Assembly (NCBI GenBank): GCA_964475855.1
Contig: CAYZAV010000004.1
Coordinates: forward strand, 1 to 61,131
DNA length: 61,131 bases
Direction of reading: 5' to 3'
Source of the DNA: an uncultured Candidatus Saccharibacteria bacterium
GTDB taxonomy: Bacteria; Patescibacteriota; Minisyncoccia; Minisyncoccales; Staskawiczbacteraceae
Both the position numbers and the translations under genes were made by a program. The first letter of the stretch is position 1, and each line of letters starts with the position of its first letter. The notes under the pieces were generated by a model. That model did not search any database and was not told the origin of the DNA. It saw nothing but the letters and a program-made list of their open reading frames with translations. This document shows, piece by piece, positions 991 to 60,963 of the stretch.

Positions 991-1029
991 GGGCGCCGCA
1001 AGTCAATTTGACCCGGCGCCTATTTTTTT
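991..1029 (+). terminator. Rho-independent terminator overlapping the dnaK stop
   Basis: GGCGCCG (992-998) pairs with CGGCGCC (1014-1020), followed by T8 (1022-1029). Confidence 0.6.
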
Positions 1030-2921
1030 TCTTTGAACTCTCCCTCCTCTGCTTTCGGCTGGTCTTCCTGTTTTGGCGCTTCTGCATCCTTTGACGCATC
1101 TGGAGTCTGTGTTTTATACAACTCTGCGCCGATTTTTTGCATGTGTTCTGACAAATCTTTTGTTGCAGCTTTTATAGTATCAATATTGTCAGATTTCTGT
1201 GCTTCTTTCAATACAGCCAGTTTTTCCTCGGCTGTTTTTTTCATATCGGCATTAACTTTTTCACCGGCGTCTTTTAGCGTCTTTTCCGTAGTATAAACCA
1301 TGGCATCGGCCAAGTTTTTGGTTTCAATGCTTTCCTGCTTTTTCTTGTCTTCGGCGGCATGTAGTTCGGCATCTTTTTTCATTTTTTCTACTTCTTCTTT
1401 GCTCAAACCGGCTGAGCCTTCAATTTTAATGCTTTGGGTTTTTCCACTGGCCTTGTCTTTGGCGGAAACATTTAAAATACCATTGGCGTCAATGTCAAAG
1501 CTTACCTCAATCTGTGGCACACCGCGCGGGGCTGGCGGAATGCCATCTAGCATAAACCTGCCTAATGTTTTGTTATCGGCGGCCATAGGGCGCTCGCCCT
1601 GTAGTACATGGATTTCCACACCTGGCTGACTATCTGCCGCGGTTGAAAATATTTGTGTTTTCCCAGTTGGCACGGTGGTATTTTTGGCGATTAAAATAGT
1701 ATCAACCCCGCCCATGGTTTCAATGCCAAGGCTCAAAGGTGTAACGTCTAACAGTAGCACGTCTTTTACGTTGCCCTGCATAATGCCGCCCTGCACAGCC
1801 GCTCCAATGGCTACCACCTCATCTGGGTTTACTTCTTTGTTGGGTTCTTTGCCAAACAGTTTTTTTACCTCTTCAATAATTTTTGGCATGCGCGTTTGCC
1901 CGCCCACCATGACCACTTCGTTAATTTCGCTGGCTGCCAAACCCGCTTCTTTTAGGGTCTGCTTTACCAGTTCAATAGATTTTTCAATGTATTCCCCTAC
2001 CATGTTTTCAAACTGGGCGCGGCTTAACTTTTGCAACAAATGCTGCGGGCCATCGGCGCCGCTGGTAATAAACGGCAAATTAATTTCTGTTTCCATGCTA
2101 CTAGATAATTCAATCTTAGCCTTTTCAGAAGCTTCTTTAATGCGCTGCAAAGCCAAATTATCTTTTTGCAAATCAATGCCGTTATTTTTTTTGAATTCCG
2201 CCACTACCCATTCCATGATGCGCTGGTCAATGTCGTCGCCGCCCAAATGAGTGTCACCGCCGGTGGCTTTTACCATTACCGATTGTTCGTCACCCTCCAT
2301 GCCCATTTCAAGCACGGTAATATCAAACGTTCCGCCACCAAAATCATACACTACAATTTTTTCATTTTTTTTCTTGGTTAGGCCATACGCCAAAGCCGCC
2401 GCGGTTGGTTCGTTGATAACGCGTTTTACGTTAAACCCGGCAATTTCCCCGGCAATTTTAGTGGCCTTGCGTTGACTGTCGTCAAAATACGCCGGGCAGG
2501 TAATGATTGCATCAGTAATAGTTTCGCCTAGCTTGGCTTCCGCATCAGCTTTTAATTTTTGCAAAATCATAGCCGAAATTTCAGCGGGGTTTAACCACTT
2601 GTCTCCCATCTTAACATCAACTCCGCCGTCGGCTGATTCTTTAATTTCATACGGCAAATTCTTTTTATCCCGCTGTACCTCGGCGTCGCTAAACTTGCGG
2701 CCGATTAATCGTTTTACCGAAAAAATCGTATTGGTCGGGTTGGTCACCGATTGCCTTTTAGCCAACACACCCACTACGCGCTCCCCCGTCTTGGTGATGG
2801 CAACAACGGAAGGCGTAGTCCGCGATCCTTCTTTGTTTTCAATAATTTTGGGCTCCCCATTCTCCACCACTGCCATGGCGCTATTTGTTGTCCCCAAATC
2901 GATTCCTAATATTTTGGTCAT
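1020..2921 (-). CDS. dnaK: Chaperone DnaK (Hsp70)
   Basis: 633 aa. Contains [27 protein letters not shown] and the EEVD-less acidic tail typical of bacterial Hsp70. Confidence 0.97.
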
Positions 2922-3012
2922 GAATTGCTGAGCAGAGCGAAGAAATTCACCTCGAAAATTAGGCTTAAGTAAATAGTATACCTTGAGGCCTAATTTGCGC
3001 GGGATACCTTGC
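2922..3012 (-). repeat. Copy A of a conserved 91-nt structured 5' leader, directly abutting the dnaK ATG
   Basis: Aligns base-for-base with 52543-52633 and 60313-60403. Contains GAGGTGA (SD-like) followed by a hairpin that ends at the start codon. Confidence 0.8.
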
Positions 3013-3019
3013 TCTCTTT

Positions 3020-3778
3020 TTATTTAATAAAATTACTTTCCTTCAAAAAATCTTGTATGTTGGACATGCTAATTCCAATAGAAAGTGACGCGGTTACGTT
3101 TGGAGGCAGTTGCCAGGAATTAAACCCATGCACCCAGCCGATTACTTTTCCGTTTGCGGGAGATAAAATTGGGCTTCCACTGCATCCGGGGAAAAAGAGC
3201 TGGTCAACTTCAAATAAGTTAATCCCGTGCATGGTTGCTGTTGTTTCAACGCCATCCGGATTGGTGAATTTATACTGGTTGTTTTTACTATATTTGGTGA
3301 CAATATTCCCCTTAAATAATCGGGGTGTGATACTAAAATCTCCCAACGTGCCGGCGCTAATCCACTCAACCGGAAGCCCCATTTCCGATGAATTACTGTC
3401 AAAATCCAGCTCCAAGCCTTCAATATCCAAGAGTCCCATTTTTTCCGCTGCTTTAGGATCGATAGAAGTGTCTATGGTAAGCACGGCCAAATCCACCTCC
3501 GGTTTAAATACAATTTTTTTGGCTTTCAAAAAAGTAATTTCAAATTTTCCAAGGTCAAAATCTTTGGCATTGCTGTCGCTGCGCTTGATTAATGCGTATG
3601 AAATATTGCCATCGTTATGTTCTGTCCCCTCCCCAACTACATGATTGCACGTCAGTACATATAAGGGATTTGTGTTTATGATAAACCCGGTGCCAACCAC
3701 GCGCGCGTTATTTTCTTTTAGTCGGTTGTCTATCCGCAAAATCCCAAACACATTTTTATATATTTCTAAGGGTTTCAT
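3020..3778 (-). CDS. Trypsin-like (S1 family) serine protease
   Basis: His in LTCNHVV, Asp in DLAVL, Ser in GCSGSPI. Inserted between grpE and dnaK. Confidence 0.75.
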
Positions 3779-3780
3779 GG

Positions 3781-4233
3781 TTATTTTGTAACACTTACTT
3801 TTACTGGCCTAATTACTTTATCACCTATTTTATAGCCTTTCTGGATTTCTTCGGCCACCATTCCAGGCTTTATGCCTTCGCCATCTACTTCGGTCATAAC
3901 TTCCATAGTCGCGGGATTAAACGGTTCGCCCAAGGTCTTAATTTCTTCAATCCCCTCTTTTTTTAAAAATTCCAGGATCTGTTTTTCTATTTGCGTAAAC
4001 CCGTCTTTTCCAAACGCCGCGGCCGCCAAATATATACTATCCAGAACCGGTAATATATTAGAAAACGTACCCTCTTTGGCGTAGCCCACTAACATTCCAG
4101 CACGTTCTATTTCCCCTTTTTTGTAGTTTATTAAATCCGCCGCCGCACGCTTCCAGTTGTTTAGATATTCATCCATGTTCTTTTTGGTTTCTTCTAGCTC
4201 AGTATTGGGTTGGTTGTTTTGTGGATCTTCCAT
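3781..4233 (-). CDS. grpE: Nucleotide exchange factor GrpE
   Basis: YLNNWKRAAADLINYKK...GEPFNPATMEVM...GYKIGDKVIRPVKVSV. The start is probably MEDPQ at 4233; the track's upstream extension (to 4275) lies in a palindrome. Confidence 0.88.
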   Translation of the reverse strand: MEDPQNNQPNTELEETKKNMDEYLNNWKRAAADLINYKKGEIERAGMLVGYAKEGTFSNILPVLDSIYLAAAAFGKDGFTQIEKQILEFLKKEGIEEIKTLGEPFNPATMEVMTEVDGEGIKPGMVAEEIQKGYKIGDKVIRPVKVSVTK

Positions 4234-4247
4234 ATATTCTAAATTTA

Positions 4248-4335
4248 CAATATACAATACACAATTTACAAACAAATTCTAATTTAGAAATTCGAAATTA
4301 AAAATATTAGGTATTGTTTGTAAATTGTATATTGT
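4248..4335. repeat. Long AT-rich inverted repeat between hrcA and grpE
   Basis: ACAATTTACAAACA (4261-4274) pairs with TGTTTGTAAATTGT (4315-4328), a perfect 14-bp match. It is extended by CAATATACAAT / ATTGTATATTG. Both strands yield ORFs beginning MFVNC because of this symmetry. Confidence 0.8.
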
Positions 4336-4347
4336 TAATTGTTTATT

Positions 4348-4848
4348 TTAAAAGCTCTCTAATTCCCGTAACAATTCCTCCATCAAATTCACATTTCGGC
4401 TGTACGTGTTGCGTGAAGGGCCGAGTATGGCCAGAATGTTTAAAATATCTTCTTTGCGGTATAAATTTGGTTGCTCAAGTACCCGGGAAATTTCTTGTAG
4501 CGATGTTACTAAATCTTGCGCCATGACCAGCTCTTTGTCTATCTTTTGTTTGGCGGCCTGGATTTCTTTGGCAATATAGCCGGGCATTTCTTCGTTACTG
4601 GCATCCGTAAACGTGATTTCAATAAACAGCTGGTAACCCTTGTTGGTTGGCACGCGGCCGGCTGAAGTATGTGGTTGCGCCAGATATCCGCTTTCGGCTA
4701 ATGTTTGTAATTCATTCCGGATAGTAGCCGGAGAAATATTAAAACCGAGTTTGTTTTTTAATGACTCGGAACTGATAGGTTCGGCGTGGCCGATATATTC
4801 CCTGACCAGCAATTGTAAGATTTCTTTTTGGCGTTCGCTAAGTTCCAT
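4348..4848 (-). CDS. hrcA: Heat-inducible repressor HrcA, short form (166 aa)
   Basis: N-terminal winged-helix sequence ERQKEILQLLVREYIGHAEPISSESL...ISPATIRNEL..LAESGYL.QPHTSAGRVPT. About half the usual HrcA length. Confidence 0.8.
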   Translation of the reverse strand: MELSERQKEILQLLVREYIGHAEPISSESLKNKLGFNISPATIRNELQTLAESGYLAQPHTSAGRVPTNKGYQLFIEITFTDASNEEMPGYIAKEIQAAKQKIDKELVMAQDLVTSLQEISRVLEQPNLYRKEDILNILAILGPSRNTYSRNVNLMEELLRELESF

Positions 4849-10077: not shown

Positions 10078-10178
10078 GGTATCTCCTCTAAAAAAAGCGA
10101 TTTCTTCTAAAAGTTTTTCAGCCCATTACTGATTAACTTTATTGAAGGGGAAAGCGCGGCATCATGCTTTGCTTTCCC
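10078..10178 (-). repeat. Island intergenic module M4
   Basis: GGGAAAGC-N15-GCTTTCCC hairpin (10148-10178), CCCCTTCAATAAAG (10137-10150), AAAGTT..AACTTT hairpin, TTTTAGAAG, then the SD. Confidence 0.8.
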
Positions 10179-10188
10179 TTATTTTTAA

Positions 10189-10545
10189 CTATTCCCACGT
10201 CCTGTTGGGGATAGCGTAGAGGGAGAAGGCGAACGTCGCCTTGGCCACCTCCTCGTAGGTGTACTCGTGGCGGTCGGTCAGCCGCGGCAAGCCGCGGACG
10301 CCCATGACCACGATTCGGTCGCCAAGTCCCAGGTTTACCTGGGGTGGCTTTTCCGGAATCGGGACGTCAATCCCGAATCGTTGCCTCATGGCCTTGATCG
10401 TCGCTTCGTGCGACGGGTTTAGGCAGGGTACGACGCCCTGGCTCACCAATTCCTTGACGGCTGCCACCGTCAGGGCGGTACGCGTGATGACACAGTCATC
10501 ACTGAACATTGAATCTGCCAATGCGAAACCAAAATACGTAGCCAT
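10189..10545 (-). CDS. Island ORF 4, STIV B116-like / DUF1874-like protein (118 aa)
   Basis: The pattern ALADSMF...NPSHEAT...VNLGLGDRIVVMGV..LPRL...YTYEEV...FAF matches my recollection of the B116/YddF family layout. Recalled, not searched. Confidence 0.55.
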   Translation of the reverse strand: MATYFGFALADSMFSDDCVITRTALTVAAVKELVSQGVVPCLNPSHEATIKAMRQRFGIDVPIPEKPPQVNLGLGDRIVVMGVRGLPRLTDRHEYTYEEVAKATFAFSLYAIPNRTWE

Positions 10546-11530: not shown

Positions 11531-11629
11531 ACGTCACCCCTCGTTAGAAAAACTTCTAAAAGCTTACCATACCCAGTGCATCGTAAGCTTTAGTGAAGGG
11601 GAAAGTGCGGCATCGTGCGTTGCTTTCCC
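11531..11629 (-). repeat. Island intergenic module M2
   Basis: GGGAAAGC..hairpin (11599-11629), CCCCTTCACTAAAG (11588-11601), AGCTTAC-N15-GTAAGCT hairpin (11561-11589), TTTTAGAAG, then GAGGGG. Confidence 0.8.
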
Positions 11630-11639
11630 TTGTTTTTTG

Positions 11640-12215
11640 CTAATCGCCCAGTTGAGCGATTGCTTTGCGCGCCCTGGCGACGACCTCCTTGAAGTCGTGA
11701 AACCTGTTTTTCAGGGCTTCTTCGAAGAGTTTCTCCCACTCCTCCTTGGTGGCACAGAAGAAGCTCATGCCGGGGCGGCGCATGTCGCGCCAGGACAGGG
11801 CCTTTTGCCCGTAGGTCTCACCCGGGCAAAGCCCCTCAACTCCGTCCTTTCGCATCCATCTTTGTTGCCCTTGGTTGGGCTCGCCAAAGATGCCCCGCAC
11901 GATGCGGTATTTCCCTGCTCTTCCATGAGCCTCATACTTTTCCCTCTCTACCTTGACGAACTGAGCGATGGCCTCCTTGATCTCTTCCAGGGGCCAAGGG
12001 AAAATAGCTTGGATGGAGACATTATCTCCCCATCCGGTTTCCCTGATTCGAACGGAGCACCATATGGCTCCGAGTTCCTTCATTCTTTTTTCAATTGCCT
12101 TGGGGTCTGCTAACCCCAGGCCACCAGATTTGATGGTGGCAAACGTGCCACCCTTTCGTCCGGCTTCGATCTTGGCCCCAACCAGATAGGGCGCCAATTC
12201 GATGAGGTTAGCCAT
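11640..12215 (-). CDS. Island ORF 2, hypothetical 191 aa
   Basis: AGGGGA SD 7 nt before the ATG. Largest island ORF. No family recognised. Confidence 0.6.
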   Translation of the reverse strand: MANLIELAPYLVGAKIEAGRKGGTFATIKSGGLGLADPKAIEKRMKELGAIWCSVRIRETGWGDNVSIQAIFPWPLEEIKEAIAQFVKVEREKYEAHGRAGKYRIVRGIFGEPNQGQQRWMRKDGVEGLCPGETYGQKALSWRDMRRPGMSFFCATKEEWEKLFEEALKNRFHDFKEVVARARKAIAQLGD

Positions 12216-12310
12216 TTTAGATCCCCTAAAAACTTCTAAAATTTGATAACACGAAATTGTGTTACAAACCTTATTGAAGGGGAAAGCGCGGCATCGTGCG
12301 TTGCTTTCCC
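12216..12310 (-). repeat. Island intergenic module M1
   Basis: GGGAAAGC-N15-GCTTTCCC hairpin (12280-12310), CCCCTTCAATAAGG (12269-12282), TTTGTAACAC-N6-GTGTTATCAAA hairpin, TTTTAGAAG, then AGGGGA. Confidence 0.8.
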
Positions 12311-12397
12311 TTGTTTACTATTCCGGCGTGAAAGTAGGGAGGGTTTTTTGAAATAGGCAAACCCTCTTGGCCTGCAATGCACACCATGTGTATTGCA

Positions 12398-14849: not shown

Positions 14850-14878
14850 ATTCTATCATAAAATTTTACCGGTGTCAA
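14850..14878 (-). promoter_or_regulatory. sigma70 promoter, TTGACA-17 nt-TAGAAT, in front of the displaced typA fragment
   Basis: TTGACA at 14873-14878 and TAGAAT at 14850-14855 on the minus strand. Confidence 0.6.
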
Positions 14879-14919
14879 AGCATAAAAAAACCGCGGCGAT
14901 TAGGCTACGGTTTGATGGT

Positions 14920-15285
14920 TTAATTAAACACGGCAATTCCGTCGGTGAGGTTGCGCGAACTGCAGTGGAATGTCCTGTTAGATTGAGTGGCTTTGAAGGC
15001 ATGCATAACATCGCTGTTGATGGCGCAAAGGACAAGTTTGCCATTAGCTTCACGTATCATTCTTTGCAGAGTGATGAATTTGCCAAGACCCACCCAGCTG
15101 AAATAGTAGATATTGCCAAAATCAACCAGGAGTTTCTTTTTTCCTTGGCTGACAAGGGTGAAGAGCTCTATACCCATTTGCCAGATGTCATCCGCACTTA
15201 CAATTTTTTTGACTTTGAACGTGACATGAGTGATGTCGGTTTCGGGAATGTCTTCATGCTCAAAAATCTGGATCGGATCGGCCAT
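14920..15285 (-). CDS. STAS-domain protein (anti-sigma-factor antagonist-like), copy 1
   Basis: Start MADPIQIFEHED with AAAGGAAA SD. KKKLLVDFGNIYYFSWVGLGKFITL is typical of a STAS fold. Confidence 0.75.
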   Translation of the reverse strand: MADPIQIFEHEDIPETDITHVTFKVKKIVSADDIWQMGIELFTLVSQGKKKLLVDFGNIYYFSWVGLGKFITLQRMIREANGKLVLCAINSDVMHAFKATQSNRTFHCSSRNLTDGIAVFN

Positions 15286-15430
15286 GGCGGGTTTCCTTTC
15301 TATTCTATGGAATTGGGAAAGAACGGACAATAGTTTTCAAAATTATAGCACATTTTTGTAAAAAAACAACCCACCTCATCCTTTCCCGATCTTTGGCACA
15401 CGAGAAAGAGAAGTTCTGTATACAATCATC

Positions 15431-15442
15431 TGTCGCACAATA
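15431..15442 (+). repeat. TGTCGCACAATA copy 5 (intergenic, next to the STAS-2 terminator)
   Basis: Exact 12-mer. Confidence 0.95.
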
Positions 15443-15477
15443 AAAAAACCGCGGCGTTTAGGCTGCGGCTTGATGGT

Positions 15478-15843
15478 TTAATTGAACACAGCGAGTCCGC
15501 CAATGAGATTCTGCGAATCGCAGTTGAACAGTTTATTGAGCCGAGTGACTTCGAACACCTCGAACACATCTTCATTGATGGCACAGAAGACCAGCTTGCC
15601 GCCGGCATCGTTGACCAATCTTTGCAGGGTGATGAACTTTCCCAGCCCGGCGGAGCTGAAATATTCCACGTTTCCCCAGTCGACCAGGAGTTTCTTTTTC
15701 CCTTGGTCGGCAAGGCTGAAGAGCTCCGCCCCCATCTGGCTAATCACGTCATCAGTTACAATTTTTTTGACTTTGAACCTGACATGAGTGATGTCGGTTT
15801 CGGGAATGTCTTCATACTCAAAGATCTGGATCGGGTTGGCCAT
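15478..15843 (-). CDS. STAS-domain protein, copy 2 (tandem paralogue)
   Basis: Start MANPIQIFEYED. The roughly 85-nt upstream region (15851-15935) duplicates 15301-15385, including TGCTATAAT. Confidence 0.75.
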   Translation of the reverse strand: MANPIQIFEYEDIPETDITHVRFKVKKIVTDDVISQMGAELFSLADQGKKKLLVDWGNVEYFSSAGLGKFITLQRLVNDAGGKLVFCAINEDVFEVFEVTRLNKLFNCDSQNLIGGLAVFN

Positions 15844-15960
15844 GACAGGCTTCCTTTCTATGGAATTGGGAAAGAACGGACAATAGTTTTCAAAATTATA
15901 GCACATTTTTGTAAAAAAACAACCCACCTCATCGGCGGGTTGTTGCAGACATGAAATATC

Positions 15961-19006: not shown

Positions 19007-22000
19007 TTATTCTGTTGGTCGTAGTTCAATATCCGGTTCGGGTATGTCGTCATTATTCTGGATTTCGTATGGATCGCCAACGCTGTCCTGTTCATTGTAA
19101 AATGTGCAGGTGACCGTGGTGCCCGAGGTTATAATTATGGCGTTTAGGGGATCCCCGTTATCGCAACTTGAACTGGTGTTCGTCCATCCAGGGGTGGCGG
19201 GTTCAGTTAATGAATAGGTTCCGGAATTGAGCGTAAATGAGGTTGACCCGACCCCACTCATAGTTATGGCAGTTGAGCTAGTGGATGTCGCTCCGCTGAC
19301 CGCGTAGTCAAAACTACCATCCCCGCCAGTGGTATTTTTAATGATCATAAGTGTGCCCTGGCCGCCGGATGATCCACTATACGTGTTCGTAAACGTACAG
19401 GTAGATGTTTTACCGTCTTCAATAGTGATGGGTAATGGATTCCCGGAAAGATCGTAAAGGTCAATCAGTGGGCCAGTGGGGTCAAGTAAATTGGTACATT
19501 GGGCGCTGGTCAGTGTCCAGTTTGCAAGAGGAGCTTCATTAAGAATGTAATTAGTCCCCGGAGAAAGATCTACAGAAGCATATCCGGATCCTGTAACCGT
19601 GGCAATGGCTGGCATCCCCGTATCACCGGAAAAAGTAAACGTCCCATCTCCGCCAACAGCAATTTTATTGACTTCAAGTGTTCCCATGCCGGGTGGCGGC
19701 GCGGTATAGGTGTTTTCAAAATAGCAGGTAGTAGTGCCGCCAGCTACTACCAGTATATCTTTTACACCGGTTGGGGTGCTGATGTAGGTTGTATCGCAAA
19801 ATGCGTCGGTTAAGGTAAATCCCGCAGGTAGCGCCGTTTCATCAATGCTATAGGCTTTACTGGTAGTGATGTTTGTACTATCAATGAAGGGTTGATACAG
19901 ATTTACAGAATTTGCATTTAAGGTAACCGGAGAAATTGGAAATATATTTTCCGGCGCATAAGGAGTAGTTCCGATCCTGCTATTGGTTTCAAAGGTAAAG
20001 GTGCCTCCGGCTCCGTAGGTGTTTTTGATTAATCGAATGGTGCCGGTATTTGGCGGTGGAGGTGGTGGCGCAGTATAAGTATTTTCAAACGTACAAGTAG
20101 TGGTTTGGCCTGCATATATGCCAAATCCTTCGTCTGTGAAACCGGGATTCAGAATATGTGTACCAAATTGATCCGTACATGATACCATAACGCCCGGAGA
20201 TAATGGAGTTTGGGCCCAGTTAGCTTGTGAGACCTCGGTAATATTACCAATTAAGCTACTTTGGTTTGGTAATGATATGAGGGCGCTTGAACCTGTTCCC
20301 CCAGTGGTAGTAACGGATACATTAGCAGGTGCTCCAAAAACTGCAGGCATGCTAAAGTTAAACGTGCCGTTGCCGCCAATAGTATTTTTAATAATTTGTA
20401 GAGTTCCCGCAGCAGGTGGGGTGCCTGTGGTATTAGTAAATGTACACGTTGTAATTTCCCCGGGATTTATCATTACGTCATCAAGACCTGGGCCACCTTG
20501 GGCCACTCCCGTTGGTGTTCCATTTGCTAGATTGCACACAACTGAAGTTATTGACCATCCCGCCGATAGCGTTTCATATATATTTCGAACGCCTGGCCCG
20601 TATACTATGTAAGAGTCGTCCCCATAATTACTAGTAGTTGTAATGCTATGACTACCTTGACCCCAACCAAAAGTAAAGGTGCCATCACCTCCAGCGGTAG
20701 TTTTTATAATATGAACATATCCAACCCATGAGTTGGTCATATAACAAGTTACCGTAGTGCCATCGCCAATCGTAATTACTGGATTAGGAGACACAGGAAA
20801 GGTTGTACCATCTGAAGACGAGCAATAAAAACCGCCATTCTGTTGAGCCCATTCAGGCCCTAGTGATTCGTTTAAAGTATAACTTCCCGTTGCCATTGAA
20901 ATCAATCCGCTGTCACCATTCCCAATTCCCGTGGCAATTGCCCCGGTAGTTGTTACGCTAATAAGCCCCGGGGTTGGTAAAACATTGAAATCAAATGTCC
21001 CATCACTGCCACCGGTTGCTATTTTATGTATTATTAAATTTCCAGTTCCAGTTGGTGCTGTATAGGTATTATTAAACGAACAGGTGACCGTATCCCCGGC
21101 TCCAATAGTAACTGCGGTGACGGGGTCTCCGTTGTCACAGATAGCCGAGGCTAAATTCCAATCTGGAATTGAGCTTTCCGCAAGACTGTAAGTTCCCGTG
21201 CCAACTGGTCGAGAATCGTATCCTGATCCAATGGAAGAAGAAGTACTTACCGCCATTAGAAATGGGGGTAATACGGTTGCGCCTTGTTGAATACCAATCG
21301 TAAAATTAACGTTTCCTCCAGGGCCTCCATTAGTGTTTTTCAGTATTTGAAGAGTTCCTGTTGCTGCGCCCGTAGTATAGGTATTTTCAAACGTACAAGT
21401 AACAACACTGCCAGGGGTAATATTAATTGCATTAATAGGATCTCCATTGTCGCAAGTGGTTGTACCGGTTTCAGTCCATCCTACTATTGGATCTTCACTA
21501 ATTTCATAGAGTCCTGGGGTTAAAGAGGCCAAACCAAGTCCAGACGTAGAACTGAGACTACCGATTGTCGCTTGTATAACGATAGGAGTTGCAAAAACGG
21601 GAAAATTAAAGGTTTCACCGCCCGCGCCATTGATAGTATTTTTTATAATTCTTAGTGTTCCCGGACTTGTCGGGTTATATGTATTGCTAAAATTACAAAT
21701 AACTGTGTCTCCGGGATCTATTTGAATACCGCTTACGCCAAAGCTATCCGGCGTTCCACGAATATCTGAAACATTAGTACTTAAGGCACACATTGCTCCC
21801 CCGTCAAAGTTCCAACCTAATGGGATTGGAGATTCATCTAAGAAATATGTTCCAGGCAAAATAGAGATAATGCCACTTGAGGCAAATCCCCCCGAAACAG
21901 CAATGCTTGGAGCTCCGCTGGTTGGCCCATTTAATACAAAGTCGAATATTTCATCCGGACCACTGGTAATGGTTTTATTGATGATAATTTCGGCTTGGCC

Positions 22001-22123
22001 CGGCGGAGCTGCTTTTATTGTTGCTGGTGTTAATCCAAAGAATAGTACTGCTATTGTAGCCGCAAAAAATAGCCGATTAAAATATTTTTTAGAAAAATAA
22101 TTCACGTTTAATAATAATATCAT
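19007..22123 (-). CDS. Giant secreted repeat protein (1038 aa), about 10 prealbumin/SpaA-like fold repeats
   Basis: Signal peptide. Reiterated GTLxIIKNTxGGxGTFxF...C..G....I..G.T.TCTFxNTY units. Confidence 0.8.
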   Translation of the reverse strand: MILLLNVNYFSKKYFNRLFFAATIAVLFFGLTPATIKAAPPGQAEIIINKTITSGPDEIFDFVLNGPTSGAPSIAVSGGFASSGIISILPGTYFLDESPIPLGWNFDGGAMCALSTNVSDIRGTPDSFGVSGIQIDPGDTVICNFSNTYNPTSPGTLRIIKNTINGAGGETFNFPVFATPIVIQATIGSLSSTSGLGLASLTPGLYEISEDPIVGWTETGTTTCDNGDPINAINITPGSVVTCTFENTYTTGAATGTLQILKNTNGGPGGNVNFTIGIQQGATVLPPFLMAVSTSSSIGSGYDSRPVGTGTYSLAESSIPDWNLASAICDNGDPVTAVTIGAGDTVTCSFNNTYTAPTGTGNLIIHKIATGGSDGTFDFNVLPTPGLISVTTTGAIATGIGNGDSGLISMATGSYTLNESLGPEWAQQNGGFYCSSSDGTTFPVSPNPVITIGDGTTVTCYMTNSWVGYVHIIKTTAGGDGTFTFGWGQGSHSITTTSNYGDDSYIVYGPGVRNIYETLSAGWSITSVVCNLANGTPTGVAQGGPGLDDVMINPGEITTCTFTNTTGTPPAAGTLQIIKNTIGGNGTFNFSMPAVFGAPANVSVTTTGGTGSSALISLPNQSSLIGNITEVSQANWAQTPLSPGVMVSCTDQFGTHILNPGFTDEGFGIYAGQTTTCTFENTYTAPPPPPPNTGTIRLIKNTYGAGGTFTFETNSRIGTTPYAPENIFPISPVTLNANSVNLYQPFIDSTNITTSKAYSIDETALPAGFTLTDAFCDTTYISTPTGVKDILVVAGGTTTCYFENTYTAPPPGMGTLEVNKIAVGGDGTFTFSGDTGMPAIATVTGSGYASVDLSPGTNYILNEAPLANWTLTSAQCTNLLDPTGPLIDLYDLSGNPLPITIEDGKTSTCTFTNTYSGSSGGQGTLMIIKNTTGGDGSFDYAVSGATSTSSTAITMSGVGSTSFTLNSGTYSLTEPATPGWTNTSSSCDNGDPLNAIIITSGTTVTCTFYNEQDSVGDPYEIQNNDDIPEPDIELRPTE

Positions 22124-22156
22124 AATTAGTGATCGGTCTATGTGTGGATAACCCCT

Positions 22157-24379: not shown

Positions 24380-24440
24380 GTTCAGTCATTTTACCATGCC
24401 CGGCAAACGCCGCAACTGTGGATAACAAATGACCGAAGAA

Positions 24441-24848
24441 TTATTCCGTTACGGTGATGGTTCCCTTTATCGTCGGATGCAGTTTGCAGTAATACGAATA
24501 CTTTCCCGCCACGACAAAGGTGTCGCTATATGTTGAAGCTTTTTGCAGTTCCGGACTCATAGGGCCGTTGTTATCTGCGGTAACCGTGTGGGTCATAATA
24601 TCGGTGTTAGTCCAAACAACCGTCTGGCCTTTTTTGATGGTAACATCTTTTGGGAAAAAACCATCTTTACTGATTACTACCGTCACAATATTGGAAGGCA
24701 TGGCAATTTGGTAAGGATTTTTCACCTGGTTGGTTTTGAGCACGATAATGCAATACACTAATCCGTACACAATTGCACCCAGAATAGCATAGGCTAAAAG
24801 CCAGTACCAGAACGTTTTTTTAAGTTGTTGTAGGTTTTTCATAGTCAA
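24441..24848 (-). CDS. Membrane-anchored cupredoxin-domain protein
   Basis: KKGQTVVWTNTD.MTHTVTA...YSYYCKLHPTIKGTITV. Confidence 0.7.
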   Translation of the reverse strand: MTMKNLQQLKKTFWYWLLAYAILGAIVYGLVYCIIVLKTNQVKNPYQIAMPSNIVTVVISKDGFFPKDVTIKKGQTVVWTNTDIMTHTVTADNNGPMSPELQKASTYSDTFVVAGKYSYYCKLHPTIKGTITVTE

Positions 24849-40778: not shown

Positions 40779-40804
40779 ATTCGTATCATTCGAATGTCAT
40801 TCGT
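40779..40804. repeat. Three phased ATTCG(T/A) repeats at the 3' end of the surface-protein gene
   Basis: ATTCGT at 40779, ATTCGA at 40789, ATTCGT at 40799 (10-bp spacing). Shares ATGTCATTCGTAGATTAG with 53690-53708. Confidence 0.65.
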
Positions 40805-40818
40805 AGATTAGTGTCGCT

Positions 40819-50525: not shown

Positions 50526-51292
50526 GTGATGTGTGCCAACATATGTTGGGCCAATAGTTCAGGGTGGCCAAGCTGTAATGCGTGCGTGCCACCGGCAATA
50601 ATAATCAGTTCAGAGCCCGCAATTTTAGAATGGATGAATTGAGCTTGTTCTATCGGGGTTGACTCATCTTTGTCACCCCAAATGATTATGGTCGGCACTT
50701 TGATAAAATAAAGACCCTGGGACAAATCATCGGAAATGACATTTAAATAGGTTTGGCGCATAGAAGGTGAAATACTTAGATAATCGCTTTTGCGAATGAT
50801 GAATTTGTAAAATGCCTTACGACCCAATTCATATTGTGGCAAAAATGCCAGCACTTTAGCCATTTTCGCCAGGTACTGCCAGCCCCTTTTTGCGACGGTG
50901 CGGTTTCTGACGCAGGCGGCGGAAACCAAGAATAGTTTTTTAATATTCTGATTATATTGTATGGCATATTTGGCTGACAGTGCTCCGCCAAACGAATGTC
51001 CGGCAAGATAAAAATCTTGTTTTAGTTCGGGCACGCTTTGTACAAATTCATGCAACCATTCAACGTACTGGTTAATGGTCCAGGCGCCCAAAGGTTCTTG
51101 GCTTAAACCAAATCCGGGCAAATCGGGAACGACGATTTTAATGTTTTTTCCGGCCAACATTTCCGCTACTTTGACCCATCGGTCGGATTTTGACGGCCAG
51201 CCATGCAAAATCAGCAAGGATTTTTCGCCCTGCCCAAAAACCTTGTAATTTATCTTGAGATTTTTTACTTCAATCTGCTGTTCTTCCATCAC
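50522..51292 (-). CDS. Alpha/beta-fold hydrolase
   Basis: HGWP, nucleophile elbow GHSFGG, C-terminal His. Confidence 0.85.
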   Translation of the reverse strand: MMEEQQIEVKNLKINYKVFGQGEKSLLILHGWPSKSDRWVKVAEMLAGKNIKIVVPDLPGFGLSQEPLGAWTINQYVEWLHEFVQSVPELKQDFYLAGHSFGGALSAKYAIQYNQNIKKLFLVSAACVRNRTVAKRGWQYLAKMAKVLAFLPQYELGRKAFYKFIIRKSDYLSISPSMRQTYLNVISDDLSQGLYFIKVPTIIIWGDKDESTPIEQAQFIHSKIAGSELIIIAGGTHALQLGHPELLAQHMLAHIT

Positions 51293-52542
51293 TTCTTTTT
51301 CGGCTTAATCACCTTAAACCCGGTATATTTGTGCAGCACTTTTGGGATTTTCACACTGCCGTCTTTTTGCTGGAACTGTTCCATTATGGCTGGAATTAAC
51401 CTGCTTGTTGCCAAGCCCGAAGCGTTTAACATATGCACAAACTCATTTTTTTGCGCTTTTTCGTCGCGATATTTAACGTTTCCGCGCCTTGCCTGGTAGT
51501 CCAAACCATTGGAAGCGCTACTTACTTCTTTGTAAATTCCCATGCTTGGGATCCATACTTCAATATCAATAGTTTTTGCCATAGCCGCGCTGGCGTCGCC
51601 AGCTGCCAATTGTACCGATTGGAAATTCAGCCCTAACCCTTTTACCAATTTTTCGGCATTGGCAACCAGTTCCTCAAATGCTTCCCAAGATTTCTCCGGC
51701 AACGTAAACTGGAACATTTCTACTTTGTTAAATTGGTGGCCGCGCACCATGCCGCGCTCTTCTTTGCGGTAACTGCCGGCTTCGCGCCTAAAACAAGCCG
51801 AATACGAAAAATATTTTAATGGTAATTCTTTTTCACTAAGCACTTCATCGCGGTGGTAGTTTCCCATCATCATCTCACTAGTGGCGTTTAGGGCCAATTT
51901 GTCCTGCGTCCAAAATAAATCATCGCGGAATTTTGGCAAGTGGCCGGAAGTGTAGGCCGATTCTTCGGTTAATAAATAGGGTAGCAATAAAAAGGTATAT
52001 TTATTTTTGCGGTGAAAATCTATGAAATAATTAAGCAATGCCCATTCCAGTACCGCCCCGTCGCCCTTATACACCCAAAAACCCGACCCGGACATTTTCG
52101 CCCCGCGTTCATAGTCAATCAATGCTAAATCCGTCGCCAATTGCACGTGGTCTTTTGGCTCAAAGGTAAATTTAGGCTGTTTTCCAAAGCTACGCAATAC
52201 CCTATTATTTTCTTTTCCACCTGCCACCACATCATCTGCCACAATATTGGGTAGTTCCGATAGTCTTTCCTTTAACTGCGCTTCTATTTGACCTATTTTT
52301 TCGTCCAGCGCGTTTATTTGATCCCCCACCGCTTTCATTTGGGCAATCATTTCCGGCGTTGGCTTAGTCTTTGAATTTTTATTCCGGTCAGCCTTCAGTA
52401 TCTCCGCTTCTGTCAATAATTTCTTTCGTGCATCATCCAGTGCAACTACACCATCCAAATCAAAAGCACTCTCTGGTAGCCGCTTGAGGAGCGATTTCTT
52501 AACTTCTTCCTTGTTATTTCTTATTTTTAAAATGTCTAACAT
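51289..52542 (-). CDS. serS: Seryl-tRNA synthetase
   Basis: N-terminal coiled coil and class II motifs (FRREAGS, GLATSR). Confidence 0.95.
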   Translation of the reverse strand: MLDILKIRNNKEEVKKSLLKRLPESAFDLDGVVALDDARKKLLTEAEILKADRNKNSKTKPTPEMIAQMKAVGDQINALDEKIGQIEAQLKERLSELPNIVADDVVAGGKENNRVLRSFGKQPKFTFEPKDHVQLATDLALIDYERGAKMSGSGFWVYKGDGAVLEWALLNYFIDFHRKNKYTFLLLPYLLTEESAYTSGHLPKFRDDLFWTQDKLALNATSEMMMGNYHRDEVLSEKELPLKYFSYSACFRREAGSYRKEERGMVRGHQFNKVEMFQFTLPEKSWEAFEELVANAEKLVKGLGLNFQSVQLAAGDASAAMAKTIDIEVWIPSMGIYKEVSSASNGLDYQARRGNVKYRDEKAQKNEFVHMLNASGLATSRLIPAIMEQFQQKDGSVKIPKVLHKYTGFKVIKPKKK

Positions 52543-52633
52543 GAATTTATGAACAAAGTGAATAAATTCACCTCGGAAATCAGGCTTAAGTATATCGTAT
52601 ACCTTGCGGCCTGATTTACGCGGGATACTTTGC
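52543..52633 (-). repeat. Copy B of the 91-nt structured 5' leader, abutting the serS ATG
   Basis: See 2922..3012. Confidence 0.8.
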
Positions 52634-53041
52634 TTATTTGTTTAATAACGAAGATTTAAAAATTTCGGGTTTGTACGCCTTTAACCTTTCAACTTTCACC
52701 TTTTCTAGACCTCGTTTCGGCAATTCTACCGCCAATTTATCGGTAAAGTGGGTTTGGTCATATCCCAGGCAAATAATATCAGGTTTTATTTGTTCGATAA
52801 TTTTATACGGGTCGGCACCTTCGTTACCTAATACTGCCTCATCAACTAGTCCGCATTCTTGAACTTCTTTCAGCCTTTCCTGTTCAGTAAATTTCGGCGG
52901 CCGCTTTTTTACCCGTAACACCGTTGAATCCCGGCCGACAACAACGATTAATTTGTTGCCAAACTGTCGCGCTTGCCGGAAGAAATCTTTATGTCCTTCA
53001 TGCAGACCGTCAAACGTACCGAAGACGAGAATCTTAGTCAT
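52634..53041 (-). CDS. Cytidylyltransferase-family nucleotidyltransferase (HxGH)
   Basis: VFGTFDGLHEGH motif. 135 aa. Confidence 0.7.
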   Translation of the reverse strand: MTKILVFGTFDGLHEGHKDFFRQARQFGNKLIVVVGRDSTVLRVKKRPPKFTEQERLKEVQECGLVDEAVLGNEGADPYKIIEQIKPDIICLGYDQTHFTDKLAVELPKRGLEKVKVERLKAYKPEIFKSSLLNK

Positions 53042-53676: not shown

Positions 53677-53701
53677 ATTCGTAGATTCGGATGTCATTCG
53701 T
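53677..53701. repeat. Three phased ATTCG(T/G) repeats at the 3' end of lysS
   Basis: Copies at 53677, 53686 and 53696. Confidence 0.65.
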
Positions 53702-53704
53702 AGA

Positions 53705-59484: not shown

Positions 59485-60312
59485 TTACTTTTTATACCCA
59501 GTTACCACAAATAGCGTGTCAATGTTTTTAACATCGAAAAATGGCCGGATGCTGGCGGTTTGAAATGCCTTGGCATCATTTTTGTTGATGGAAAGAACAC
59601 TGCCAACCAATAAATCTTTTGGGAAGATGCCCTCGAGTCCGCTGGTCACCAGTAAATCCCCCTCTTTCAGTTCGGCATCCGAAGAAACCAAATCAAGATA
59701 CGCGCTAAAGCCGCTACTGCCTTTTACGGCGCCATAGATAGGCACCGTCAATGGATTGCTATTTTGTATTTTCACATTCAAGACGCTGGAACTATTGGAA
59801 ATAAGCGCCACTTCTGAAACATTGGCGTAAACAGCAAGAACTCTGCCGTAGACCACATTTTCATGGGAAATAACGGCCATATTTTCAGCAACGCCATCCG
59901 CCAGTCCACGATTAATGGTAATGGTATTTGCCGCGATATTGACGCCGATAATTTCAGCGGGCGACAAGTTAAGGGAATGTGCAGAGGCGGTTTTCGCAGC
60001 CACACCCGTTATTTGCGCCTGGCGGGCCACATCCTGCAGCCGGGTAATTTCGGAAAGAAGATTTATATTTTCCAATTTCAGCTTTTCATTTTCCTTGGTG
60101 GTAGCGGTAAACGTAAAAAACGACCCGAAAAAATGGGTGACCACGCTGCCACCGTGCATTAATGGGTTTGAAATGGGCGAAGAAACCACATAGAAAGAAT
60201 TACGCACCCGTGACTGGAACACATTCAAGAAAATAATAAGCAAAACGAGGCCACCGGCGATTGCCAATATTTTTTGCCAAGAAGAATTTTGTTTTTTGAT
60301 GTAAATATCCAT
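59485..60312 (-). CDS. mreC: Rod shape-determining protein MreC
   Basis: N-terminal TM, coiled coil, beta-barrel region (G.V.....S.V.LI....S). Confidence 0.85.
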   Translation of the reverse strand: MDIYIKKQNSSWQKILAIAGGLVLLIIFLNVFQSRVRNSFYVVSSPISNPLMHGGSVVTHFFGSFFTFTATTKENEKLKLENINLLSEITRLQDVARQAQITGVAAKTASAHSLNLSPAEIIGVNIAANTITINRGLADGVAENMAVISHENVVYGRVLAVYANVSEVALISNSSSVLNVKIQNSNPLTVPIYGAVKGSSGFSAYLDLVSSDAELKEGDLLVTSGLEGIFPKDLLVGSVLSINKNDAKAFQTASIRPFFDVKNIDTLFVVTGYKK

Positions 60313-60403
60313 GAATTTATGAGCAAAGCGAATGAATTCACCTCGGAAATCAGGCTTAAGTATATCGTATACAATTAGGCCTGATTTACGCGGGATACCT
60401 TGC
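60313..60403 (-). repeat. Copy C of the 91-nt structured 5' leader, abutting the mreC ATG
   Basis: See 2922..3012. Confidence 0.8.
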
Positions 60404-60780: not shown

Positions 60781-60787
60781 GTTCTTT

Positions 60788-60898
60788 GGTGGCGACTACC
60801 TACTTTCGCGTTCATCACACTATCATCGGCCTTGGAGTATTTCACTTCTGTGTTCGAAATGGGAACAGGTGGGACAACTCCAGTATCATCGCCACCAC
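60788..60898 (-). rRNA. rrf: 5S ribosomal RNA
   Basis: The reverse complement contains CCCACCTGTTCCCATTTCGAACACAGAAGTGAAA, with helix I pairing GTGGTGGCGA / TCGCCACC. Confidence 0.9.
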
Positions 60899-60963
60899 AG
60901 AACTCAATTGTTCTGTGGCTATTGCAAATAACAAAGATACGTAAAATCTGTATCTATCAAATA

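What the first reader, a model, noticed from the sequence alone, without database searches (positions are those of the whole stretch)
2922..3012. A 91-nt structured leader is fused to the start codons of dnaK, serS and mreC (2922-3012, 52543-52633, 60313-60403)
Three unrelated minus-strand genes are each preceded, with no gap, by the same 91-nt element. Minus-strand copy B reads GCAAAGTATCCCGCGTAAATCAGGCC..GCCTGATTTCCGAGGTGAATTTATTCACTTTGTTCATAAATTC-ATG. Two features stand out. First, a long hairpin shows compensatory change: TCAGGC/GCCTGA in copies B and C versus TTAGGC/GCCTAA in copy A. Second, an SD-like GAGGTGA is followed by a second hairpin (GAATTTAT..ATAAATTC) whose 3' arm ends at the A of the ATG. 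The SD is therefore ~27 nt from the start in linear sequence but adjacent once the hairpin folds. Phage T4 gene 38 is known to use this arrangement. In copies A and B the element fills the whole gap to the upstream gene's stop. It could be a translational enhancer or thermosensor, a processing site that uncouples these genes from upstream transcripts, or a small mobile promoter/leader cassette.
Basis: partly seen in the sequence, partly recalled or inferred. Interest (0 to 1): 0.7.

Follow-up and report, generated by a model that had tools for sequence, protein, structure and literature searches.

The report
Mobile leader inserted at start codons
A 91-base structured DNA repeat in an uncultured Patescibacteria (CPR) genome has copied itself to sit exactly against the start codons of unrelated essential genes, so these genes now depend on a portable, hairpin-forming leader to be translated; a similar kind of repeat is known only from Neisseria (REP2) and Borrelia.

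Summary
Three 85-91% identical copies of a 91-nt element end exactly at the ATG of dnaK, serS and mreC, against 0 expected by chance. The genome is a Staskawiczbacteria-like Patescibacterium.

I found two more independent copies in a related species, before yidC and before a 117-aa gene. Both are in gene orientation and both end ...AATTC|ATG. Relatives carry empty sites at serS, mreC, dnaK and the 117-aa gene. The element is therefore a lineage-specific insertion placed immediately 5' of the start codon, with no target-site duplication.

It has no Rfam, phage or plasmid match and no sigma-70-type promoter. It folds into a long imperfect hairpin with a robust central stem, which shows one compensatory C-G/U-A change.

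The genome is SD-poor. The element's invariant GAGGUGA lies 25 nt from the AUG. The proposed T4 gene 38-like bridging hairpin has an invariant 5-bp base and two covarying pairs, but it is predicted stable only in copy B and competes with helices that pair the GAGGUGA.

Best reading: a small mobile leader / translation-initiation cassette. The closest analogues are Neisseria REP2/CREN and Borrelia IR-A repeats. How it moves and how it promotes translation are both unresolved. I class it as a new variant of a known kind.

The parts
2922..3012 (-). Copy A of the 91-nt element, abutting the dnaK ATG. It is the most divergent copy (81-86% identical to the others).
   Evidence: CM score 107.9 bits
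52543..52633 (-). Copy B, filling the whole gap between the stop of the cytidylyltransferase-like gene and the serS ATG.
   Evidence: a relative has TAAccATG at this junction
60313..60403 (-). Copy C, in the 5' leader of mreC, downstream of the 23S-5S rRNA genes.
   Evidence: the empty site in a relative is colinear up to the ATG
2919..2921 (-). dnaK start codon (gene 1020-2921), directly fused to copy A.
52540..52542 (-). serS start codon (gene 51289-52542), directly fused to copy B.
60310..60312 (-). mreC start codon (gene 59485-60312), directly fused to copy C.
52577..52617 (-). Central hairpin of copy B (element positions 17-57): a 9-bp stem AAAUCAGGC/GCCUGAUUU with an A/U-rich apical stem-loop. 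The equivalent stretches are 2956-2996 in copy A and 60347-60387 in copy C.
   Evidence: pair probability 0.85-0.99 in all five copies; compensatory 21-53 change
52568..52574 (-). Invariant SD-like GAGGUGA (element positions 60-66). Also at 2947-2953 and 60338-60344. It is complementary to the canonical 16S 3' end UCACCUC and lies 25 nt before the AUG.
   Evidence: paired in all predicted folds
52543..52552 (-). 10-nt A/U-rich 3' tail UCAUAAAUUC (element positions 82-91) that touches the AUG. The last five bases, AAUUC, are invariant and form the 3' arm of the proposed bridging hairpin with GAAUU (65-69).
52627..52633 (-). 5' end GCAAAGU (GCAAGGU in A and C). It can pair with positions 75-81 (ACUUUGU / GCUUUGC) to close an 81-nt rod. 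The G-U pairs in this helix make it specific to the sense strand.
3020..3778 (-). Upstream trypsin-like peptidase gene. Its stop lies 7 nt before copy A. grpE is at 3781-4275.
52634..53041 (-). Upstream cytidylyltransferase-like gene. Its stop codon directly abuts copy B.

Best explanation
The element is a lineage-specific, non-autonomous mobile leader cassette. It is 91 nt long, and about 5-8 nt longer at the 5' end in the related species. It occurs in a small clade of Staskawiczbacteria-like Patescibacteria.

Shown:
- It has been copied to at least five unrelated loci in two species.
- It is always in the orientation of the downstream gene.
- Its 3' end (...AAUUC) is always joined directly to the ATG.
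- There is no target-site duplication.
- At serS it interrupts what was a 2-nt stop/start junction.

Inferred:
- It is transcribed as part of the mRNA and folds into a long imperfect hairpin. The central stem is robust. The outer helices 1-7/75-81, 9-15/59-66, 59-66/73-80 and 65-72/84-91 compete with one another.
- SerRS, DnaK, YidC and MreC must still be made, so the element itself must supply a working translation-initiation region.
- That region is the 10-nt A/U-rich tail plus the AUG. It is predicted to be as accessible as native start regions of this SD-poor genome. The invariant GAGGUGA may help if local folding brings it near the AUG.
- The copies place several housekeeping genes under one common structured leader, as the REP2/CREN repeats of Neisseria do.

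The enzyme or process that puts the element exactly at start codons is unknown.
For: - Three copies in the window, far beyond chance.
- Two further independent copies, D (rnpA-yidC junction) and E (117-aa gene), in JGI contigs of a related species. Both end AATTC|ATG.
- Empty sites in relatives:
  - serS: TAAccATG, or an unrelated 72-nt spacer.
  - mreC: the flank is colinear without gaps up to the ATG.
  - dnaK: 21-29-nt A/T-rich spacers.
  - E-gene ortholog in the window's own genome: 69% aa identity, same N-terminus, no element.
- If insertion were uniform within each available spacer, five exact ATG junctions would have a probability of about 1e-7 (my calculation from the spacer lengths).
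- Copies are 81-93% identical across species, whereas the neighbouring hrcA-like gene is 76% identical.
- The 3' parts of the copies cluster by species, so the element spread after the species split.
- The G-U pairs lie on the sense strand only, and there is one clean compensatory pair.
- Predicted accessibility of positions -12..+13 is 0.35-0.62 for the five element-led genes, against 0.51 +/- 0.10 for 38 other genes.
- Only about 7 of 38 other genes have GGAG/GAGG at -14..-5.
- Literature precedent exists for repeats that carry an RBS and an ATG fused to unrelated ORFs: PMC3184786, sections 11-12.
Against: - Only five independent copies are known. About 80 kb of one genome and about 16 kb of the other could be scanned, so copies elsewhere that do not abut a start codon cannot be excluded.
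- No transposase, target motif, TSD or convincing terminal inverted repeat was found, so mobility rests on comparative evidence only.
- No expression, 5'-end or structure-probing data exist.
- Apart from the central hairpin, the secondary structure is ambiguous.
- The 16S anti-SD of this genome could not be retrieved. About half of Parcubacteria 16S genes lack the motif (PMC9297842).
- High similarity between copies may reflect recent spread rather than function.
Confidence: 0.55

Rival explanations
1. Split Shine-Dalgarno enhancer. GAGGUGA is a true SD. Hairpin 2 (65-72 with 84-91) loops out the 25 intervening nucleotides, so the SD and the AUG sit side by side on the 30S subunit, as in T4 genes 38 and 25. 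On this reading the element is selected because it boosts translation of the genes it lands on.
For: - A 7-nt perfect complement to the canonical anti-SD is invariant in 5 of 5 copies. I estimate the chance of such a 7-mer in 91 nt at about 0.04.
- The stem base GAAUU/AAUUC is invariant, and its 3' arm ends at the base before the AUG. This would explain why the junction must be exact.
- Pair 72-84 is U-A in three copies and C-G in two. Pair 71-85 is A-U or C-G.
- In copy B the hairpin is 9 bp, with probability 0.93 at 15 C and 0.35 at 37 C.
- T4 precedent: spacings of 22 and 27 nt are reduced to 5 and 11 nt by structure (PMC3014915).
- Some genes of this genome do use GGAG at -8 to -13.
Against: - Pair 70-86 is mismatched in 4 of 5 copies and 71-85 in 2 of 5.
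- The predicted probability of hairpin 2 is 0.06 or less in A, C, D and E.
- GAGGUGA is paired in every predicted fold, with 9-15 or with 73-80. Both of these helices are equally compatible with the sequence variation.
- In D and E, bases 84-86 pair better with the 5' flank.
- Counted as in T4, the folded spacing would be only about 1 nt.
- Most genes here need no SD, and the anti-SD of this genome is unverified.
Confidence: 0.25
2. A purely selfish palindromic repeat of MITE, REP or PATE type. It has an insertion preference for the trinucleotide ATG/CAT. It survives only where it does no harm, and in a compact genome that place is the position just before a start codon. It has no function for the host.
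For: - The rod-like imperfect palindrome is typical of MITE transcripts.
- The 7-12-nt imperfect terminal inverted repeats are longer in D and E.
- The 5' boundary is fuzzy while the 3' boundary is fixed.
- Spread is species-specific.
- Start-region accessibility is merely average, not enhanced.
Against: - There is no TSD and no related IS.
- A 3-nt target would also give copies at intergenic and antisense ATG/CAT sites, and none was seen in about 96 kb.
- Insertion between a coupled stop and start (serS) and in front of essential genes is not obviously harmless unless the element carries initiation signals.
- The invariant perfect SD-like heptamer is left unexplained.
Confidence: 0.3
3. A regulatory leader: an RNA switch, thermosensor or protein-binding operator. 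Alternative pairings of three segments (1-15, 59-66 and 73-81) expose or hide the initiation region. This would put dnaK, serS, mreC and yidC under one post-transcriptional signal, a regulon built by a mobile element in the way CREN/REP2 builds one in Neisseria.
For: - The mutually exclusive helices P1+P2 and H3 are all compatible with the observed substitutions.
- The invariant G13-A61 mismatch and the bulged U64 lie in a G/C-rich helix, a typical protein-recognition feature.
- One target is dnaK.
- REP2 precedent for co-regulation.
Against: - No Rfam family matches, even at E up to 10.
- Predicted folds change little between 15 and 37 C except in copy B.
- The target genes share no obvious physiological theme.
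- Five sequences cannot discriminate between the competing helices.
Confidence: 0.15
4. An RNA processing or insulation module. The long hairpin is cut (for example by RNase III) or acts as a 5' stabiliser. This would separate the downstream cistron from the upstream transcript and give it a defined, protected 5' end.
For: - Three of the five copies (A, B, D) sit inside operons and fill almost the whole intergenic gap.
- A long, nearly perfect duplex of about 20 bp is a plausible RNase III substrate.
- Correia elements in Neisseria are processed this way (my own knowledge, not checked here).
Against: - There is no direct evidence.
- Copies C and E lie in ordinary 5' leaders.
- This reading does not explain why the 3' end must touch the ATG.
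Confidence: 0.12
5. A mobile promoter: the element brings its own transcription start to the genes it precedes.
For: - -10-like hexamers lie in the apical loop region: TATACT in most copies and TATAAT in copy E.
- 'Putative mobile promoters' are widespread (PMC3575422).
Against: - The consensus scan finds no -35/-10 pair inside any copy.
- The -10-like hexamers have no -35 or TG partner, and the hexamer is shifted in copy A.
- mreC keeps its own upstream promoter-like region, which is conserved in the relative without the element.
Confidence: 0.06

Closest known systems
Neisseria REP2 / CREN repeats, and the similar Borrelia plasmid IR-A/IR-B sequences (reviewed in PMC3184786, sections 11-12)
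   Same: These are dispersed non-coding repeats of about 100-150 bp without a TSD or a clear transposase. [quoted passage not shown] They carry the 5' UTR, a ribosome-binding site and the ATG, which is fused to the ORFs. Their origin and means of proliferation are unknown.
   Different: There is no sequence relationship, and the phylum is different (Patescibacteria). This element is shorter (91 nt) and has no recognisable promoter. Its SD-like motif lies 25 nt from the ATG rather than at normal spacing. It also sits inside operons, replacing stop/start junctions. Here, empty-site comparisons show the insertion point to be exactly at the ATG.
Split translation-initiation regions of phage T4 genes 38 and 25 (PMC3014915)
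   Same: The SD is more than 20 nt from the AUG, with an intervening inverted repeat whose base would bring the two together.
   Different: The T4 cases are single-copy, gene-specific and experimentally proven. Here the hairpin is weak in 4 of 5 copies, competes with other helices, is untested, and is part of a mobile repeat.
Bacterial MITEs and other small dispersed palindromic repeats (Correia/CREE, ERIC, RUP, REP/BIME, REPIN)
   Same: They are small, non-coding, multi-copy and species-restricted. Their transcripts fold into long hairpins, they are often co-transcribed with neighbouring genes, and they can alter expression.
   Different: This element has no TSD, only short imperfect terminal inverted repeats, and a conserved non-palindromic 3' tail. 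It has a strict sense orientation and a fixed junction with start codons. Classical MITEs insert at short targets (for example TA) at variable distances and in both orientations.
Putative mobile promoters (Matus-Garcia, Nijveen, van Passel 2012; PMC3575422)
   Same: Highly similar upstream sequences (at least 80% identity over at least 50 nt) occur in front of non-homologous genes in one genome and are sometimes shared between taxa. The mechanism is unknown.
   Different: That survey looked at positions -150 to -50 and did not address fusion to the start codon. No promoter signal is found in this element.
Mycobacterial interspersed repetitive units (MIRU)
   Same: They are 40-100-bp repeats inside operons, in gene orientation, that fill intergenic gaps between a stop and the next start.
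   Different: MIRUs are tandem units. My recollection (not checked here) is that they contain small ORFs overlapping the flanking stop and start codons. This element is single-unit, is 91 nt long (not a multiple of 3), and has no in-frame start codon.

Membership tests
REP2/CREN-type leader repeats (Neisseria; Borrelia IR-A) | Dispersed repeat immediately upstream of unrelated ORFs, with the ATG fused to the ORF | tested here: met
   5 of 5 independent copies end ...AATTC|ATG before dnaK, serS, mreC, yidC and a 117-aa gene.
REP2/CREN-type leader repeats (Neisseria; Borrelia IR-A) | Contains a ribosome-binding site at working distance | tested here: inconclusive
   GAGGUGA is invariant but lies 25 nt from the AUG. 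It could work only through folding.
REP2/CREN-type leader repeats (Neisseria; Borrelia IR-A) | Contains a promoter | tested here: not met
   No sigma-70 consensus pair lies inside any copy. This is a consensus scan only, not an experiment.
REP2/CREN-type leader repeats (Neisseria; Borrelia IR-A) | No terminal inverted repeats; internal inverted repeats forming stem-loops | tested here: met
   The central 9-bp stem plus apical stem is present in all copies. The ends pair over only 7 imperfect bp.
REP2/CREN-type leader repeats (Neisseria; Borrelia IR-A) | Sequence homology to REP2 or IR-A | not tested
   No REP2 or IR-A sequence was at hand. The Rfam search found nothing.
Classical MITE | Target-site duplication flanking the element | tested here: not met
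   The 5' flanks (GAGA, ATAA, AACG, CGAC, ACGA) and the 3' flank ATG share no repeat. The mreC filled and empty sites are colinear without gain or loss.
Classical MITE | Terminal inverted repeats matching an autonomous IS | tested here: inconclusive
   Only 7-12-nt imperfect inverted ends are present, plus a non-palindromic 10-nt tail. No related IS was found in 248 kb searched. The whole genomes were not available.
T4 gene 38/25-type split initiation region | SD more than 20 nt upstream of the AUG | tested here: met
   25 nt separate GAGGUGA from the AUG in all copies.
T4 gene 38/25-type split initiation region | Stable intervening hairpin that juxtaposes the SD and the AUG | tested here: inconclusive
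   The 5-bp base is invariant and two pairs covary. However, 70-86 is broken in 4 of 5 copies, and the predicted probability is 0.06 or less except in copy B.
T4 gene 38/25-type split initiation region | Translation depends on the hairpin (mutations and compensatory mutations) | not testable with these tools
   This needs reporter fusions or toeprinting.
IS200/IS605-derived elements (PATE) / REP-RAYT | Conserved 4-5-nt target 5' of the left end, and similar subterminal hairpins at both ends | tested here: not met
   The 5' flanks share no tetranucleotide. On the other strand only CAT is shared. There is one main hairpin, not two similar ones.
Integron attC site | R''/R' core sites (RYYYAAC ... 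GTTRRRY) at the ends of an imperfect palindrome | tested here: not met
   Reading the five aligned copies shows no such motifs at the ends. The flanking genes are syntenic housekeeping genes.
Known RNA families (RNA thermometers, riboswitches, ribozymes, leaders in Rfam 15) | Match to a covariance model | tested here: not met
   No hit at gathering score. Only noise at E up to 10.
Putative mobile promoters (PMP) | At least 80% identity over at least 50 nt upstream of non-homologous genes in one genome | tested here: met
   85-91% identity over 91 nt before three unrelated genes. The PMP definition says nothing about function.

The most novel reading that the evidence does not exclude
The element is moved by a mechanism that recognises translation start sites as such. 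The mechanism could be RNA-templated, ribosome-linked or initiation-complex-linked, or it could be an unknown recombinase that reads the N|ATG junction. On insertion it installs a portable, self-contained structured initiation region. In this way CPR bacteria with largely SD-independent translation would build a post-transcriptional regulon of core genes (chaperone, tRNA synthetase, membrane insertase, cell-shape protein) by transposition.
Probability: 0.15. Interest if true: 0.85.

Novelty: new variant of a known kind. Interest (0 to 1): 0.6.

Why it matters
Dispersed repeats that carry a start codon and fuse it to unrelated genes have been described only anecdotally (Neisseria REP2/CREN, Borrelia IR-A). 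How they spread has never been explained.

This case adds three things:
- Clean filled-versus-empty site pairs show insertion exactly at the start codon of essential genes. At serS the insertion breaks a 2-nt stop/start junction.
- The host is an uncultured CPR lineage whose translation is mostly SD-independent.
- The element carries a perfect SD-like heptamer at a non-functional linear distance.

If the element is a working initiation module, it would be a natural, portable 'insulated RBS'. It would also be a route by which gene expression is rewired in streamlined genomes. If it truly targets start codons, that would be a new kind of insertion specificity.

On the practical side, the element misleads gene callers. 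Database DnaK models from this organism start 8-15 codons too late.

Tried and rejected
Searches that found no further copies:
- Genome-contig scan with two invariant anchors: only 6 hits, which is the number expected by chance. The two with the right spacing were read and are unrelated. The family is therefore absent from the GTDB species representatives, at least with these anchors.
- Viral contig scan: 0 hits.
- Phage and plasmid BLAST: no match.
- Rfam: no family at gathering score or at E up to 10.
- ARAGORN: no tRNA-like call.
- nhmmer profile and covariance model R1 over 248 kb (window, 9-kb extensions on each side, relatives): no degenerate or partial copies.

Ideas rejected:
- Internal promoter: no consensus site.
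- Intrinsic terminator: not called by the scan. The U-run is only 3-4 nt and lies within the stem.
- N-terminal extension or MIRU-like small ORF. The frame of the gene is open through the element but contains no ATG, GTG or TTG. A GUG63 uORF in another frame has no usable SD, and its end is not conserved (read from the alignment).
- H-type pseudoknot combining 59-64/75-80 with 65-72/84-91: rejected on geometry, because the first connecting loop would be 0 nt.
- tRNA-punctuation-like processing: there is no cloverleaf.

Limits:
- The 16S rRNA 3' end (anti-SD) could not be obtained. The rRNA operon next to mreC has 23S and 5S only, and no 16S was found in any fetched locus.
- The apparent G-C/A-U covariation at pair 1-81 is doubtful, because the first two bases of copy E may be flank.
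- An 85-nt palindrome with the same terminal hexamers upstream of mreC in another relative (L008) is single-copy and otherwise unrelated.

Full report
**1. Observation**

Each is followed without a gap by an ATG. In the alignment, similarity begins at GCAAGG/GCAAAG and ends at the ATG, and the flanks on both sides are unrelated. Two sub-patterns of 21 and 26 nt each hit exactly these three places with up to 3 mismatches, against 0.00 expected from shuffles.

Pfam confirms the downstream genes as DnaK (633 aa), seryl-tRNA synthetase (417 aa) and MreC (275 aa). Their first residues are the canonical N-termini, so the fused ATGs are the real starts. Upstream lie:
- a trypsin-like gene, preceded by grpE (copy A, 7 nt of spacer);
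- a cytidylyltransferase-like gene (copy B, 0 nt of spacer);
- the 23S-5S rRNA genes (copy C).

The same copies occur in assemblies of four different samples.

**2. Organism and context**

The best SerRS, DnaK and MreC homologues are from Candidatus Staskawiczbacteria and other Parcubacteria/Patescibacteria. The window is part of a 403,851-bp ENA metagenome contig.

The genome is SD-poor. Of 38 called genes without the element, only about 7 have GGAG or GAGG at -14..-5. Most housekeeping genes have A-rich leaders without an SD. A published survey found the anti-SD motif in only 48% of Parcubacteria 16S genes (PMC9297842). I could not recover this genome's 16S.

**3. More copies**

A scan of GTDB species representatives with two invariant anchors gave only chance hits. 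The same anchors in JGI metagenomes gave three true hits among 26. They represent two loci of a related species, whose hrcA-like gene is 76% identical in DNA to the window's.
- Copy D lies between the stop of the RNase P protein gene (11 nt upstream) and the ATG of yidC.
- Copy E lies directly before the ATG of a 117-aa hypothetical gene.

Both are in gene orientation and both end ...AATTC|ATG. No further copies, partial or degenerate, were found in the following:

| Material searched | Method |
|---|---|
| Window, 9-kb extensions on each side, and about 150 kb of relatives | profile HMM and covariance model |
| Viral contigs | anchor scan |
| Phage and plasmid records | BLAST |

**4. It is an insertion placed at the ATG**

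Synteny around all loci is conserved in relatives, but the element is absent there.

| Locus | Relative or locus (identity) | What the empty site shows |
|---|---|---|
| serS | 85% SerRS relative | stop and start are 2 nt apart (TAAccATG) |
| serS | 86% SerRS relative | unrelated 72-nt spacer |
| mreC | 72% MreC relative | TAAGATAAGAcattatcgcATG; the window has TAAGATAAGGcatcaaacg[91 nt]ATG; the 35 nt before the junction align without gaps |
| mreC | two more distant relatives | no element |
| dnaK | 85-87% DnaK relatives | 21-29-nt A/T-rich spacers |
| E gene | ortholog in the window's own genome (69% aa identity, same MQFEIKNVTRS start) | no element |

There is no target-site duplication and no motif shared by the flanks other than the ATG. 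If insertion were uniform within each available spacer, five exact junctions would have a probability of about 1e-7 (my arithmetic). Orientation is 5 of 5 in sense.

The 3' parts of the copies cluster by species: B with C, D with E, and A apart. Overall identity between species (84-90%) is as high as within species. So the element spread after the species split, yet it has diverged much less than neighbouring genes.

The 5' boundary is less sharp. D and E carry 4-5 extra bases that pair with the tail (GACGA/UCGUC). C shares CAAACG with D just upstream of GCAAGG.

**5. Structure**

All five copies share a robust central hairpin at positions 17-57, with pair probability 0.85-0.99.

The RNAalifold consensus is an 81-nt rod made of helices 1-7/75-81, 9-15/59-66 and 17-25/49-57 plus an apical stem. 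It leaves a 10-nt A/U-rich tail and the AUG unpaired. The G-U pairs in the outer helix would be C-A mismatches on the other strand, so folding is specific to the sense strand. This fits an RNA-level role within the mRNA.

Outside the central hairpin several helices compete:

| Helix | Positions paired | Note |
|---|---|---|
| P2 | GAGGUGA with UCCCGCG (9-15) | part of the consensus rod |
| H3 | CGAGGUGA (59-66) with UCGCUUYG (73-80) | also fits all substitutions |

Hairpin 2 is predicted with appreciable probability only in copy B. With five sequences, two of which are close relatives, covariation cannot decide between these helices.

**6. What it does**

- There is no sigma-70-type promoter or terminator-like site inside the element on the sense strand.
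- There is no usable small ORF (read).
- No Rfam family matches.

At serS, what is a 2-nt stop/start junction in the relative now holds 91 nt of structured RNA, and SerRS, DnaK and YidC are indispensable. I therefore infer that the element itself supplies a working initiation region. The predicted accessibility of -12..+13 is 0.35-0.62 for element-led genes, against 0.51 +/- 0.10 for 38 other genes. The tail plus AUG therefore looks like a normal start region of this SD-poor genome.

The invariant heptamer GAGGUGA is perfectly complementary to the canonical 16S 3' end. I estimate the chance of such a match at about 0.04. This suggests an additional SD contact. At 25 nt from the AUG it could act only through folding, as in T4 genes 38 and 25 (PMC3014915), or as a standby site. 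That part remains unproven.

**7. Comparison with known systems**

- **REP2/CREN and IR-A/IR-B.** The closest known kind is the Neisseria REP2/CREN repeat and the Borrelia IR-A/IR-B sequences. These are dispersed repeats without terminal inverted repeats, with internal stem-loops, that carry a promoter, an RBS and an ATG fused to unrelated ORFs. Their proliferation is unexplained (PMC3184786). This element shares the fusion to the ATG, the internal hairpins, the sense orientation and the lack of a known mobilising mechanism. It differs in five ways: it is unrelated in sequence and in host phylum, it is shorter, it has no detectable promoter, it has a distant SD, and it also sits inside operons.
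- **Putative mobile promoters.** It meets the purely descriptive definition (PMC3575422).
- **Other families.** It fails the defining tests for classical MITEs (no TSD), for IS200/IS605-type derivatives (no conserved target, no paired end hairpins), for attC sites, and for all Rfam families.

**8. Verdict**

The 'mobile leader cassette' reading is supported. The specific split-SD mechanism is plausible but not established. The promoter reading is not supported. I rate it a new variant of a known but rare and poorly understood kind of element. Its insertion specificity for start codons is unusually well documented, but it rests on only five copies.

Noticed in passing
window-wide; L048 and L052 gene starts: The genome is SD-poor. 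Only about 7 of 38 called genes have GGAG/GAGG at -14..-5. Housekeeping genes have A-rich leaders, and several have -10-like hexamers within a few bases of the ATG, so they may be leaderless or nearly so. The SD-led genes are mostly small hypothetical ones.
   Followed up: partly
window 40788-40818 and 53685-53715: A 31-nt repeat (90% identical) lies directly 3' of the stop codons of two unrelated minus-strand genes (40819-42525 and the class II tRNA synthetase gene at 53705-55210). On the gene strand it reads ...CTAATCTACGAATGACATYCGAAT..ACGAAT, with ACGAAT/CGAAT repeated three times, and it is followed by a terminator-like hairpin.
   Followed up: partly
window 10137-10194, 11588-11645, 12269-12326: Three copies (79-86% identical) of a 58-nt hairpin-plus-T-run unit (GGGGAAAGC...GCTTTCCC) lie in a region of small SD-led hypothetical genes. 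They look like shared terminators of paralogous small genes.
   Followed up: no
L048:4660-9526 (just beyond the right end of the window; window 60787-61131 holds 5S and the 23S 3' end): The 23S rRNA gene carries two group I introns and a LAGLIDADG endonuclease ORF. No 16S gene is adjacent, so the rRNA operon is split. mreC follows 5S directly, as in a relative (L012).
   Followed up: partly
window 1020-2921 (dnaK): Database gene models of this same DnaK are 618-625 aa instead of 633 aa (P0178-P0180). They start at internal codons 8-15 residues downstream, probably because the gene caller saw no SD near the true ATG, which is fused to the element.
   Followed up: partly
window 3020-3778: A trypsin-like peptidase gene sits between grpE and dnaK in this genome and in one relative lineage (L041-L046), which also has an extra 138-aa ORF. 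Two other relatives have a DUF6680 gene there instead. The hrcA-like gene (4348-4848) encodes only about 160 aa, the winged-helix part.
   Followed up: no
window 42041-42340 and 44942-45241: A 300-nt stretch is reported as 100% identical between two neighbouring paralogous genes (40819-42525 and 43414-45399). This could reflect recent gene conversion or an assembly effect.
   Followed up: no
window 14873-15380 and 15431-15933: A tandem duplication of about 550 nt, 76-98% identical. It includes an 83-nt stretch at 98% identity.
   Followed up: no
window 19007-27642: Three very large minus-strand ORFs (1038, 740 and 940 aa) are full of internal 44-78-nt repeat units, so they are probably repetitive surface proteins.
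   Followed up: no
L008:2827-2911: In a Staskawiczbacteria relative, an 85-nt near-perfect palindrome (-44 kcal/mol) lies between the Na/Ca-exchanger stop and mreC. It begins GCAAAG and ends CTTTGC, like the element, but it is otherwise unrelated and is single-copy in the loci held.
   Followed up: partly
L023:2545-3804: A 419-aa ORF lies 1.5 kb downstream of copy E. By eye its N-terminus looks like a helix-turn-helix, transposase-like protein, but it has no Pfam match at E up to 0.001. No link to the element was found.
   Followed up: partly
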